Source of the DNA: Escherichia coli
Lineage (GTDB): Bacteria > Pseudomonadota > Gammaproteobacteria > Enterobacterales > Enterobacteriaceae
Strand: one strand, 5' to 3'
Assembly: GCF_050920415.1 (NCBI RefSeq)
Contig: NZ_CP169310.1
Length of the DNA stretch: 64,000 nucleotides
The position numbers were made by a program. Below are positions 43,001 to 47,235 of this stretch, piece by piece. Numbering within the stretch: the first letter of the stretch is position 1; each line of letters starts with the position of its first letter.

Positions 43001-46000
43001 CAGGGTATTTTTAGTTATTTATTGACCATGTACTCTGCCATAGTTTCTGCGTATCAACTGATAAGAGATAAGTTTTTTGTGTTTTTATTAAAAATGTGAT
43101 CCATCTTGCAAAAAAATAATCGTATAAACATGATGGGGTTAATGGGTAAATGTATATGTCTTTAAAGTATTGTGCAGATGGTTATTCTTGTTTCTGTTTG
43201 ATCGAATGGTTGTTTTGTCTGGTGTGAGTTTGTTGATGCGTATTAATTATACGCCAGGAACTTAAGTTAAGTATTGAAATCAGTGGACTGTACGGTTAAA
43301 TTTTTGTTTCAGCGTAGCTGATTCATCGTTATTCGAATATGACCAACGCACCTGTAATTGTTGTTTCTCTTGGAGCCCCCCACTTTTTGTGGGGATTTTT
43401 TTATTCCGTGTGTCGTTAAAAGGATACGCCCGGAAAACGTAATTGTTCCACATAAGAATAATTAATCTGAGCAAGTTATTTCATCCTGTCTTGTACAGAA
43501 CGTTCCACCACATATTGCGATTTTTATTCTCACGTAAAATATATTCTGCTGGTTTCAGTAATTCGGGAGATTTATGAGGCCTTTTACTGTTGTACAGTAC
43601 CGGGGGCGTATTTTCATGGAAGGAAATCACTCAATAACCGATCTCCTTCACGGTAATACGCATGAACAACAGAGAAAAAACAAAGATAGCTGATGCCCTG
43701 AGACAAACATATCCCCTGACAGAATTACTGCATGTTCTGGGCCTTGCCCGTAGCAGTTATTTTTATCACCGGGCTGCACTGAAAGCCGGTGATAAATACG
43801 CCACGATACGTACGATGCTGACAGATATCTTTAACAGTAATTACCAGTGTTATGGCTATCGTCGCCTGCATGCGATGCTCAGGCATGAGGGGGTTCGGCT
43901 ATCAGAAAAGGTTGTACGCAGACTTATGGTGGAGGAACAGCTTGTCGTCAGCCGTAACCGTCGTCGCCGCTACAGCTCATATTGCGGAGAAATCGGACCG
44001 GCTCCGGATAACCTTATCGCCAGAGATTTTAAGGCGGAGCAACCTAATCAGAAATGGCTGACAGATATCACGGATTTCCAGCTCCCTGCAGGTAAAGTCT
44101 GGCTATCACCGCTCGTGGACTGCTTCGATGGAAAAGTTGTGAGCTGGTCTCTCAGTACACGTCCCGACGCTGAACTGGTCAACACCATGCTGGATAATGC
44201 GGTCGAAACGTTAAATGCTGGCGAACGACCGGTGATACACAGTGACAGAGGTGGGCATTATCGCTGGCCAGGCTGGCTGGAAAGAGTGAATGCAGCAGGT
44301 CTTATTCGCTCAATGTCCCGTAAAGGATGTTCACCTGATAATGCCGCATGCGAAGGCTTTTTTGGCAGACTGAAAACGGAAATGTATTATGGGCGTAAAT
44401 GGTCAGACATCACGCCAGAAAAGTTCATGCAGCAAGTGGATGCTTACATCAGATGGTATAACGAGCGGCGTATAAAATTATCGCTGGGTGCCGTCAGTCC
44501 CAAAACGTACCGCCAACAATGCGGACTGGAATGATAAAGCAGTCCAAGAAATCGTCCGCATCCCCGTTTCTGTGCGCGGTCGGAGTGGTCCCGACGAGGG
44601 TTTACCCGAAGTCGGGGCGTATCTCCGCGTTAGCGGGCCGTGAGGGCCGCTTACGAGCGTGTACTGAGAACTTCCAGCAAGGATACAACCCACGCCGTTA
44701 CTGGTCGCGGAAAAATCTAGGTTTCCGGCTGGAACCCCTTGATCTGAGCTCTCAGTAAATATCAATACGGTTCTGGCGAGCCGCTTACGTTCTTTGAACG
44801 CAGCGGCTATCTCACGGGTGGTCATCCCTTTGGCATACAACGAGAGGAGCTGGTTATCCATCCCGGTAATACGGGTCTGATTTTTCTTTACCAGTTGTGG
44901 TTCGAAGGTACCGTCACGATCGCGCGGAGTACGCAGTTCCAGTGGACCGTCGCCTGTGATAACGGTCTTTGTGGAATAACCGTTGCGGGAGTTAGCTCCT
45001 GGTCTGGACTGATTTTTCTCATACCCAAGATGGTGTGTCATCTCTGCATTGAGAGCGGCTTCAACGCTGAGCTTTTTTAGCAGCCGATCAAACTGACTGA
45101 GGTCTTCAGGGGTTTTGAGGTTTTTGGCCAGTTCGTTAGCCAGAGCCTGTAACTGTTTTTCGTCCATAAATTAACCTTCATTTGATGCTGGATTGAACAT
45201 ATCAAAATCAGGCAATTACACAAATCTATGTACAGGCTCCACCAAGGGAATATCGACGTCAGCCAAGCTGAAACTATGTGATTGCCGTCAACAGTTACTG
45301 TTCAGTATTCTCCGTCCATCAATGGATTTAGCCGAATATAGTGATATATTATCTAAATTATAATAACCTTTATATTTCTGTTTTAAAAAGTTTATAAGCT
45401 CCATCTTATTTCCTACAAGATATTCACCAAAATTTGGATCAAAGAATAAAGAATGCCGACCATTTTTTATAAATGCTGTAGTATGTGACATTGTACCATT
45501 TGAAAGAGATAAATTAATAATATAAGAATCATCCTTTATATTATAGAGTTCAACAGGATTTACACCCCCTTTTATTTTTTTTAGGTGTATCTTTCCGTTT
45601 TTTATTAAGTATGGGTCTTTAATGGTTCCGCTTTCATATGCAAGTAACATTCCTCTGTATCTTGAGGAAAATGCATATGTCTTGCTAAAAAAAATGAAAT
45701 CACACTTTATGTCGTTTAATTTGTTATATATATAATCAATACACATAAAAAAACATAATCCATTATATATGCTTCTGTCTGTATGTTGAGACTTTATGAA
45801 TTCAGTTTGAGAAAACTTAAATATATTTTCCATATTTATCTGTATGTTTTCCATGTTTATTTCTGAACTTTAGGGTAAGATTATAACTTAATCTGACATA
45901 GGTTTTTATGATATATATCATTGAAATTGTAATTTCATATATATATACATGAGAGTGAGTGGTACTGTAAGTGACCTGAATACTTCAGGGCTTCACTGCG

Positions 46001-47235
46001 AAATTCAGGCGAATGCTGTTTACGTGTTTTTTTGCTGGTTGATACTGTTTTTGTCATGTGAGTCACCTCTGACTGAAAGTTTACTCACTTAGCTGCGTGT
46101 CCACTATTGCTGGGTAAGATCAGGTCTGTTGCCTTCTTTCCGCAGGACGGGCAGGCACGGCTGCCGCATGAGCAGGTCAGGTACTTTACGTGATGACAGT
46201 CCGGGTTATCACACCCGAACTCTTTTACACCCAGTATCCGTGTGCACAGATAAAACATTCTCCAGGAAAACCGGGGCGATTCATTGATTTGCGGGGGATA
46301 AATCATTGCATCTCTCCGGAGGTTTTTGGTCATCAGCTCAGGGAACACTCACCATGGGGGTGGGTATTGCGCCTACAAAAACGCTGGCTAAAAGTGCACA
46401 GTGGGCAACAAAGCAATGGCCACAGTTTTCCGGTGTGGTCGCGCTGACAACAGAAAACCGTAATCGGATCTTGAAGCTACTGGGGCTGCAGCCAGTTGGT
46501 GAGGTCTGGGGAGTAGGACGCAGACTGACGGAAAAGCTGAATGCGCTGGGTATTAACACAGCACTGCAGCTGGCGCAGGCTAACACGGCATTCATCCGGA
46601 AAAACTTCAGCGTCATTCTTGAGCGTACGGTACGCGAACTCAACGGCGAGTCCTGCATATCCCTGGAAGAAGCACCACCGGCAAAACAGCAGATTGTCTG
46701 TAGTCGCAGTTTTGGTGAACGAATCACAGACAAAGATGCCATGCACCAGGCTGTTGTTCAGTATGCAGAGCGGGCCGCAGAGAAACTACGTGGGGAGCGT
46801 CAGTATTGCCGGCAGGTGGCGACATTTATACGAACGTCACCCTTTGCAGTGAAAGCCCCCTGTTACAGCAATGCCGCTGTGGAAAAGCTTCCATTCCCCA
46901 CACAGGACAGCCGGGACATTATTGCCGCAGCATGCAGAGCGTTAAACCATGTCTGGCGTGAAGGGTACCGCTATATGAAGGCAGGAGTCATGCTGGCTGA
47001 TTTCACACCATCGGGTATAGCGCAGCCGGGATTATTTGATGAAATCCAGCCCCGTAAAAAAAGTGAAAAGTTAATGAAAACACTCGATGAACTGAACCAG
47101 TCGGGAAAAGGGAAAATGTGGTTTGCGGGGCGAGGAACCGCCCCTGAATGGCAAATGAAACGGGAAATGTTGAGTTGTCAACGCCAAGATTATTGGCCGT
47201 TTTTCGCCATTTTTAATGTCCGCTATTGGTCATTA

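What the first reader, a model, noticed from the sequence alone, without database searches (positions are those of the whole stretch)
45982..47176. umuC/impB-like polymerase gene reduced to a fragment between an IS3 end remnant and IS21
Only the C-terminal two thirds or so of a UmuC-like Y-family polymerase frame survive. The 5' part is replaced by a 140 bp IS3 end fragment and the last codons are cut by the IS21 terminus. Plasmid mutagenic-repair operons (imp/muc/umuDC) are common on conjugative plasmids, and this one has been inactivated. No umuD-like gene is present in the window.
Basis: partly seen in the sequence, partly recalled or inferred. Interest (0 to 1): 0.3.

Follow-up and report, generated by a model that had tools for sequence, protein, structure and literature searches.

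The report
Dead plasmid umuC/impB gene remnant
This is the decayed remnant of a plasmid-borne error-prone DNA polymerase gene (impB/umuC): it has lost its catalytic front end to insertion-sequence debris, carries a frameshift and is split by a newly inserted mobile element, which is ordinary gene decay already annotated on sister plasmids.

Summary
The UmuC-like frame is real. Window 46280-47175 plus 49305-49355 corresponds to codons 104-424 of a 424-codon IncI-type ImpB/UmuC (UmuC subfamily profile, 512 bits against a cut-off of 431).

1. The 141-bp IS3 left-end scrap (45983-46123) does not abut the gene. A 125-bp internal piece of an IS91-family transposase gene and a 39-bp IS3-family (IS3411/IS629-like) terminal repeat lie between them. 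That repeat forms the actual junction.
2. A 19-bp frameshifting deletion after 46345 was missed.
3. The IS21-family element (ISEc62, 2125 bp, 47176-49300) is a simple insertion with a 4-bp duplication (GAGT). It did not remove the last codons: they sit intact at 49301-49355.
4. No umuD, dinI-like gene or umuC 5' part occurs in the window. None occurs anywhere on the collinear 224-kb sister plasmid pCFSAN004181P (E. coli GB089, an enterohemolysin plasmid of a Shiga-toxin-producing strain) either.

The catalytic domain is lost, so this is a pseudogene. The NCBI annotation pipeline (PGAP) already labels it one on the sister plasmid. Eight sequenced plasmids share the truncation and the 19-bp deletion. 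Only the ISEc62 insertion is new. Ordinary; low interest.

The parts
45983..46123 (-). IS3 left-end (IRL) scrap, 141 bp. It includes the terminal repeat TGATCTTACCCAG... and the first ~20 codons of orfA (MTKTVSTSKK...). The rest of the element is deleted.
   Evidence: 97.9% identical to 54994-55134 of the complete IS3 copy in the window. 96% identical to the end of a full IS3 in plasmid p199. ORF translation.
46121..46245 (-). Internal fragment (about codons 44-84, the zinc-binding domain) of an IS91-family transposase gene. Neither end of it is an IS terminus.
   Evidence: Pfam Zn_Tnp_IS91 7.7e-9. 97% nucleotide identity over 125 bp to an intact 399-aa IS91-family transposase gene, at an internal position. 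PGAP pseudogene 'transposase zinc-binding domain-containing protein' on the sister plasmid.
46245..46283 (+). 39-bp terminal inverted repeat (right end) of an IS3-family element of the IS3411/IS629 type. This is the actual junction with the polymerase gene. Its last 4-5 bases (ATTCA) are shared with the gene sequence.
   Evidence: 37/39 identical to the end of a complete IS3-family element, immediately after the transposase stop codon, in pS65EC. That element is annotated 'IS3 family transposase | AL1L pseudoknot'. The repeat is unique in the window; 0 matches expected by chance.
46280..46345 (+). impB/umuC remnant, first piece: codons 104-125 (FIDLRGINHCISPEVFGHQLRE).
   Evidence: Alignment to the intact gene L002:2587-3861. 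tblastn residues 104-126, 95.7%.
46345..46346 (+). Site of a 19-bp deletion (AGGTAAAGAGCTGGACAGG in intact alleles) that shifts the reading frame.
   Evidence: Alignments. The deletion junction occurs as one unbroken match only in the eight sister plasmids. In all the other listed records the match splits into two pieces spanning 19 (in one record 18) extra bases.
46346..47175 (+). impB/umuC remnant, main piece: codons 133-408 (end of palm, thumb/HhH, little finger IMS_C, most of DUF4113), in a different frame from the first piece.
   Evidence: tblastn 97.1% over 276 aa, E=0. NCBIfam UmuC profile positions 133-408 of 422, 512 bits. Pfam IMS_HHH, IMS_C, DUF4113.
47176..49300 (-). Complete ISEc62 (IS21 family), 2125 bp, with istA (48027-49199, 390 aa) and istB (47233-48030, 265 aa) intact. 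Termini TGTCAACGCCAA / TGTCAGCGCCAA.
   Evidence: Pfam and NCBIfam hits for IstA and IstB. 98.4-100% identical over full length to elements annotated 'IS21-like element ISEc62 family'. Terminal repeats. Absent from this site in the otherwise identical sister plasmid.
47172..47175 (.). Left copy of the 4-bp target-site duplication GAGT.
   Evidence: Sister-plasmid positions 7273-7276 of L001 align to both 47172-47175 and 49301-49304. Sequence.
49301..49304 (.). Right copy of the 4-bp target-site duplication GAGT.
49305..49355 (+). Displaced 3' end of impB/umuC: the last 16 codons and the stop codon (...QCYTTKWRDIPLARLG*). With the duplicated AGT codon at 49302-49304, this is residues 408-424.
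   Evidence: tblastn residues 408-424, 100% identity, at 49302-49352. Nucleotide alignment.
49357..50815 (-). Convergent stbB-like and parM partition genes that follow impB in IncI-type plasmids. They show that the native 3' context of the gene is preserved.
   Evidence: Same order (Y-family polymerase, partitioning/stability protein, ParM) in IncI plasmid p853EC4. 98.8% nucleotide identity. Annotation on the sister plasmid.

Best explanation
The locus is a non-functional remnant of an IncI-type impB (umuC-family, DNA polymerase V catalytic subunit) gene. It sits on a large IncF enterohemolysin virulence plasmid of the pCFSAN004181P lineage and has decayed through three independent lesions.

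1. Inferred first: an IS3-family element of the IS3411/IS629 type inserted at codon 103/104. Later deletions and rearrangements among insertion sequences removed impC, impA, impB codons 1-103 and most of that element. What remains is its 39-bp end joined to an IS91-family internal scrap and a 141-bp IS3 end.
2. A 19-bp deletion shifted the frame between codons 125 and 133.
3. Most recently, and only in this window's plasmid, a complete ISEc62 (IS21 family) transposed into codon 408. It duplicated GAGT and separated the last 17 codons from the rest.

Shown by comparison: the boundaries, the deletion, the clean insertion with its empty site, and the absence of the partner genes. Inferred: the order of the early events, and that no product is made. 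The surviving sequence lacks the catalytic palm and fingers. From established knowledge, these include the UmuC carboxylates D6, D101 and E102. It also lacks its operon promoter and umuD partner, so it cannot provide translesion synthesis.
For: - UmuC identity.
- Start at codon 104 and the 19-bp deletion.
- The intact reference has the IMS catalytic domain at residues 6-149 and sits in a dinI-like/umuD/umuC operon. The remnant gives no IMS hit.
- IS scraps identified.
- ISEc62 is complete, with terminal repeats and a 4-bp duplication. The empty site is in a plasmid that is 100% identical on both sides.
- The window is collinear with pCFSAN004181P 159829-221681 at 99.96-100%.
- No umuD, dinI or umuC 5' part in the window or in the whole 224-kb sister plasmid.
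- PGAP annotates 'umuC ... frameshifted; incomplete; missing N-terminus' at the same place.
- The truncation and the 19-bp deletion are shared by eight plasmids, and the deletion by no other.
- No record in the plasmid or complete E. coli collections has the umuC::ISEc62 junction.
Against: - The order of the early events cannot be reconstructed, because no intermediate was found. Plasmid p199 has an IS3 near a truncated umuC, but with a different breakpoint.
- pN/pS of the remnant against one intact allele is 0.35. This is not the ~1 expected of long neutral decay. Most of the 17 differences probably predate inactivation, so the figure is uninformative.
- A long open frame (46306-47319) does exist, so translation of a C-terminal fragment is not formally excluded.
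Confidence: 0.93

Rival explanations
1. One reading: the 5' part was replaced directly by an IS3 end fragment, and the IS21 terminus deleted the last codons, leaving a doubly truncated gene.
For: The IS3 scrap is about 160 bp upstream of the gene and the IS21-family end lies at 47176.
Against: Two other IS scraps separate IS3 from the gene, and the junction is an IS3411/IS629-like repeat. The last 17 codons are present at 49301-49355 with a 4-bp duplication, which marks simple insertion and not deletion.
Confidence: 0.02
2. It is a duplication remnant: an intact impCAB/umuDC copy exists elsewhere on the same replicon or on a co-resident plasmid, so the plasmid-borne function has not been lost from the cell.
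For: In Escherichia sp. HH154_1D, a sister plasmid with the remnant (NZ_AP025752.1) coexists with a 91-kb plasmid carrying an intact Y-family polymerase gene (NZ_AP025753.1). From established knowledge, E. coli chromosomes normally carry umuDC.
Against: No second copy in the 64-kb window or anywhere on the 224-kb collinear sister plasmid. The remnant keeps its native downstream neighbours (stbB, parM), as expected of the original copy.
Confidence: 0.1
3. The remnant is kept because it encodes a useful C-terminal fragment: thumb, little finger, the QPGLF motif (which I take, from my own knowledge and untested here, to be the beta-clamp-binding motif) and DUF4113. Such a fragment could modulate or poison the host's polymerase V or sliding clamp.
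For: An open frame of 276 UmuC codons from 46348, with an ATG at 46354. The QPGLF motif is retained. The remnant is nearly identical (99.1-100%) in eight plasmids from different hosts. pN/pS is 0.35.
Against: The near-identity extends to the flanking IS junk, so it reflects recent common ancestry and not selection. The only promoter-like site in 45850-46450 lies 430 bp upstream at 45893-45921, no more than expected by chance (1 found, 1.1 expected), with none adjacent to the ATG. The sequence upstream of the ATG (gggaacactcacc) has no Shine-Dalgarno-like motif. In this window ISEc62 replaces the last 17 residues with 48 IS-derived codons, which would not be tolerated if the fragment mattered.
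Confidence: 0.03

Closest known systems
ImpB of the impCAB operon of IncI-type plasmids (UmuC family, Y-family DNA polymerase V catalytic subunit; relatives MucB, SamB, chromosomal UmuC)
   Same: About 98% nucleotide identity at aligned positions (96.2% counting the 19-bp gap) and 97% amino-acid identity over codons 133-408. 100% over the last 17 codons. Same downstream neighbours, stbB and parM. One matching record names the gene impB (LT985289.1).
   Different: Lacks codons 1-103, and so the IMS catalytic domain. Has a 19-bp frameshift. Is split by ISEc62. Has no impA/umuD or impC/dinI-like partner upstream.
umuC pseudogene CO57_RS01140 of plasmid pCFSAN004181P (E. coli O168:H8 GB089/CFSAN004181; Lorenz et al. 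2016, PMC5009963)
   Same: 100% identical sequence on both sides, with the same 5' truncation, the same IS scraps and the same 19-bp deletion. Annotated 'frameshifted; incomplete; missing N-terminus'.
   Different: The sister plasmid has the empty site. The window carries an additional ISEc62 insertion at codon 408 that was not found in any record of the plasmid or complete E. coli collections.
ISEc62 (IS21 family)
   Same: Full length of 2125 bp, istA plus istB, 98.4-100% identity to annotated ISEc62 copies. Imperfect terminal repeats starting TGTCA. 4-bp target duplication.
   Different: Nothing notable. It is a new insertion site only. The sister plasmid has no full copy (only an 87% fragment), so the donor copy was elsewhere in the host genome.

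Membership tests
UmuC/ImpB (DNA polymerase V catalytic subunit, Y-family) | Sequence match to the curated UmuC subfamily profile above its cut-off | tested here: met
   NF002955: 512 bits against a cut-off of 431, profile positions 133-408 of 422. Pfam IMS_C, IMS_HHH, DUF4113.
UmuC/ImpB (DNA polymerase V catalytic subunit, Y-family) | N-terminal IMS catalytic domain (palm and fingers, with the catalytic carboxylates at UmuC positions 6, 101 and 102) | tested here: not met
   The remnant begins at codon 104. The intact reference has IMS at residues 6-149, and the remnant gives no IMS hit. The SIDE motif (residues 99-102 of the reference) lies just upstream of the breakpoint. That these residues are catalytic rests on established knowledge.
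UmuC/ImpB (DNA polymerase V catalytic subunit, Y-family) | Uninterrupted reading frame from start to stop | tested here: not met
   19-bp deletion after 46345 and a 2125-bp ISEc62 insertion at 47176.
UmuC/ImpB (DNA polymerase V catalytic subunit, Y-family) | Operon partner umuD/impA (S24 peptidase) immediately upstream, with impC/dinI-like in imp operons | tested here: not met
   tblastn and blastn with the IncI UmuD, DinI-like protein and the umuC 5' part found only chance-level hits (E >= 0.02) in the window and in the 224-kb sister plasmid.
IS21 family insertion sequence (ISEc62) | Tandem istA (DDE transposase) and istB (AAA+ helper ATPase) genes, both intact | tested here: met
   IstA 390 aa: NF033546 280 bits, cut-off 160. 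IstB 265 aa: PF01695 296 bits.
IS21 family insertion sequence (ISEc62) | Terminal inverted repeats and a short target-site duplication verified against an empty site | tested here: met
   11 of 12 terminal bases match between the ends. GAGT is duplicated. The empty site is in pCFSAN004181P.
IS3 (the E. coli element) | Complete element with both ends and orfA/orfB | tested here: not met
   Only 141 bp of the left end remain at 45983-46123. A complete copy lies at 53875-55134.
IS91 family | Element termini and an intact rolling-circle (HUH) transposase | tested here: not met
   Only about 41 internal codons (the zinc-binding domain) are present, and both boundaries fall inside the transposase gene.

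The most novel reading that the evidence does not exclude
The promoter-less C-terminal three quarters of ImpB (thumb, little finger, the QPGLF motif that I take to be clamp-binding, DUF4113) is transcribed from an outward-reading promoter in the IS debris. It would then act as a dominant-negative or clamp-titrating modulator of host translesion synthesis, which would explain why eight large virulence plasmids retain it. In this window the ISEc62 insertion would have just destroyed or altered that activity.
Probability: 0.02. Interest if true: 0.4.

Novelty: already known. Interest (0 to 1): 0.07.

Why it matters
It matters little. Decay of imp/umu mutagenic-repair operons next to insertion sequences is common on mosaic enterobacterial plasmids, and this pseudogene is already annotated on sister plasmids.

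The practical value is threefold:
- A corrected annotation: three IS scraps, a 19-bp frameshift, a clean ISEc62 insertion and a displaced 3' end.
- A lineage marker. The umuC::ISEc62 junction with GAGT duplication distinguishes this plasmid from all eight sequenced relatives, which could help in tracing enterohemolysin/heat-stable-enterotoxin hybrid virulence plasmids.
- A reminder that a gene apparently cut off by an IS should be checked on the far side of the IS.

Tried and rejected
- Plasmid p199 first looked like an ancestral state, with a full IS3 next to umuC truncated at the same point. The alignment and ORF listing showed that its umuC extends about 220 bp further upstream and that the intervening 0.7 kb is unrelated. 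It is an independent arrangement.
- I first took the mechanical ORF 46085-46348(-) to be the start of an IS91-family element ending at the umuC junction. Comparison with an intact IS91-family gene showed the fragment is internal. The last 39 bp belong to a different, IS3-family element.
- pN/pS of the remnant against one intact allele rests on too few substitutions, which are confounded by divergence before inactivation.
- The Rfam scan of 40000-56000 found nothing. The promoter scan found one promoter-like site (45893-45921), about the chance expectation and far from the remnant's ATG.
- The junction search in complete E. coli genomes did not find the source record.
- The plasmid paper of Lorenz et al. 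(PMC5066353) is not held.
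Full report

The + strand between 46280 and 47175 encodes a UmuC-family protein. A tblastn search used the 424-residue Y-family polymerase of IncI plasmid p853EC4 (L002:2587-3861, which lies in a dinI-like/umuD/umuC operon). It aligned residues 104-126 to 46280-46348 (95.7%), residues 133-408 to 46348-47175 (97.1%, E=0) and residues 408-424 to 49302-49352 (100%). The main piece scores 512 bits on NCBIfam NF002955, 'translesion error-prone DNA polymerase V subunit UmuC', against a cut-off of 431. It covers profile positions 133-408 of 422. Pfam finds IMS_HHH, IMS_C and DUF4113 but not the N-terminal IMS catalytic domain. In the intact reference that domain spans residues 6-149. 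One matching IncI-type record names the gene impB (LT985289.1). The feature is therefore real and far beyond chance.

**2. Anatomy, from left to right**

- 45288-45854 (-): an intact, low-GC 188-aa ORF with a weak YopT/C58 protease hit.
- 45983-46123: 141 bp of the left end of IS3 in minus orientation. It is 97.9% identical to 54994-55134 of the complete IS3 in the window.
- 46121-46245: an internal scrap of an IS91-family transposase gene, about codons 44-84, covering the zinc-binding domain. It hits Pfam Zn_Tnp_IS91 and is 97% identical to an intact gene at an internal position.
- 46245-46283: a 39-bp terminal inverted repeat of an IS3-family element of the IS3411/IS629 type. It matches 37 of 39 bases at the end of a complete element whose annotation includes the AL1L frameshift pseudoknot. 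It is unique in the window.
- From 46280: the polymerase gene resumes at nucleotide 310, codon 104.
- After 46345: 19 bp present in intact alleles (AGGTAAAGAGCTGGACAGG) are missing, which shifts the frame.
- 47176-49300: a complete 2125-bp ISEc62 of the IS21 family. Its istA and istB genes are intact on the minus strand, and it is 98.4-100% identical to annotated copies. Its termini are TGTCAACGCCAA and TGTCAGCGCCAA.
- GAGT occurs on both sides of the insertion, at 47172-47175 and 49301-49304. The gene's last 16 codons and stop follow at 49305-49355.
- 49357 onward: the convergent stbB-like and parM genes, exactly as in IncI plasmids.

**3. Comparative evidence**

The whole window is collinear with positions 159829-221681 of pCFSAN004181P (NZ_CP012499.1). 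Identity is 99.96% over window 1-47175 and 100% over 49301-64000. [quoted passage not shown] It carries ehxCABD, sta1, astA and K88-like fimbriae.

The only structural difference is the ISEc62 insertion. The sister plasmid provides the empty site, with its four bases GAGT aligned to both flanks. PGAP annotates the sister locus as 'umuC ... frameshifted; incomplete; missing N-terminus' and the neighbouring scrap as 'transposase zinc-binding domain-containing protein', incomplete.

Eight plasmids of 167-225 kb share the full mosaic at 99.1-100% identity. They come from E. coli and unnamed Escherichia sp. isolated from food, cattle, a crow and humans. The 19-bp deletion junction is found as one unbroken match only in those eight. 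In every other listed record the match is split in two, almost always spanning 19 extra bases.

No record in the plasmid collection or in 5,426 complete E. coli genomes spans the umuC/ISEc62 junction. The sister plasmid has no full ISEc62, only an 87% fragment, so the donor copy lay elsewhere in the host.

**4. The partner genes and the missing 5' part**

Protein and sensitive nucleotide searches were run with the IncI UmuD-like protein, the DinI-like protein, and the first 309 nt of umuC together with upstream sequence. They found only chance-level hits (E >= 0.02) in the window and in the assembled 223,952-bp sister plasmid. The proposed refutation, an intact copy elsewhere, is negative as far as it can be tested.

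It cannot be tested on the true source genome. In one relative (Escherichia sp. HH154_1D) a separate 91-kb plasmid carries an intact Y-family polymerase gene. From established knowledge, E. coli chromosomes normally carry umuDC, so the host as a whole need not lack polymerase V.

**5. Mechanism**

Shown by the data:
- three independent lesions (5' truncation at an IS end, a 19-bp frameshift, an IS insertion with target duplication);
- loss of the catalytic domain;
- loss of the operon partners.

Inferred sequence of events:
- An IS3411/IS629-like element inserted at codon 103/104 of impB in an IncI-derived block. That block runs impB-stbB-parM-parA-integrase (46280-53110) and is 95-97% identical to IncI/K plasmid p199.
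- Later IS-mediated deletions and insertions removed impC, impA, the first 103 codons and most of that element. These events involved an IS91-family element and IS3. A patchwork of scraps was left.
- The 19-bp deletion arose in the same lineage.
- ISEc62 then transposed into codon 408 in the immediate ancestor of this window's plasmid.

From established knowledge, the UmuC catalytic carboxylates (D6, D101, E102) lie upstream of the breakpoint. The SIDE motif of the reference ends at residue 102. Without them, and without UmuD', the product could not polymerise. I put 0.93 on 'dead remnant, no function'.

**6. Rivals**

The intervening scraps and the displaced 3' end with its target duplication contradict it.
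- A functional C-terminal fragment cannot be formally excluded. A 276-codon stretch is open, the QPGLF motif is retained, and pN/pS against one intact allele is 0.35. Against it, the only promoter-like site (45893-45921) is no more than chance predicts and lies well upstream of the ATG. There is no visible ribosome-binding site before the ATG at 46354. The conservation among the eight plasmids extends equally to the junk around it. In this window the fragment's C-terminus has itself been replaced by IS-derived codons.
- A duplication remnant with an intact copy elsewhere on the replicon is not supported by the sister plasmid.

**7. Comparison with what is known, and verdict**

The sequence derives from the UmuC/ImpB family (profile match met). 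It fails every functional membership criterion: catalytic domain, intact frame and umuD partner were all tested and not met. It is a pseudogene of that family.

The insertion is an ordinary, complete ISEc62. The remnant is already annotated in RefSeq on sister plasmids, and only the ISEc62 insertion site is new. Novelty: already known. Interest: about 0.07. The finding is useful only as a corrected annotation and as a lineage marker for this family of enterohemolysin/heat-stable-enterotoxin virulence plasmids.

Noticed in passing
window 45288-45854 (-): An intact 188-aa ORF in a 28% GC island, surrounded by IS debris. It has a weak YopT/Peptidase_C58 hit: Pfam 25.7 bits, just above cut-off; NCBIfam 26.5 bits, below the 52.95 cut-off. 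PGAP names it 'YopT-type cysteine protease domain-containing protein'. This is an effector-like protease on a plasmid of a strain lacking the locus of enterocyte effacement.
   Followed up: partly
window 45983-46123 and 53875-55134: The 141-bp IS3 left-end scrap is a same-orientation repeat of the left end of the complete IS3 9 kb downstream. The IncI-derived block (impB remnant, stbB, parM, parA, frameshifted integrase; 46280-53110) lies between them. This hints that IS3 copies once bracketed, or helped import, this block into the IncF plasmid.
   Followed up: partly
window 43662-45167: More IS debris. An IS3-family orfB lacking its N-terminus lies at 43662-44534 (+). An apparent IS256-like transposase N-terminal fragment lies at 44478-45167 (-); the IS256-like label is my own reading of the ORF translation and was not tested. 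PGAP calls these incomplete 'IS3 family transposase' and 'transposase' on the sister plasmid.
   Followed up: no
window 53248-53874: An older IS21-family istA fragment, 87% identical to the 3' part of the new ISEc62 and cut off by the complete IS3. The plasmid has therefore been hit by IS21-family elements at least twice.
   Followed up: partly
window ~36800-38120 and 49357-50815: By collinearity with pCFSAN004181P, the window carries two parM/stbB-type partition gene pairs. One lies in the IncF leading region and one in the IncI-derived block next to the impB remnant. The sister plasmid's psiA (window about 24.5-25.3 kb) is annotated as frameshifted.
   Followed up: no
sister plasmids: NZ_AP025742.1, NZ_AP025752.1, NZ_AP025755.1: The same plasmid lineage occurs in unnamed 'Escherichia sp.' isolates from cattle and humans. 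One of them (strain 10290) holds a 100% identical ISEc62 copy at a different site next to pemK. This suggests ISEc62 is currently active in this plasmid/host group.
   Followed up: no
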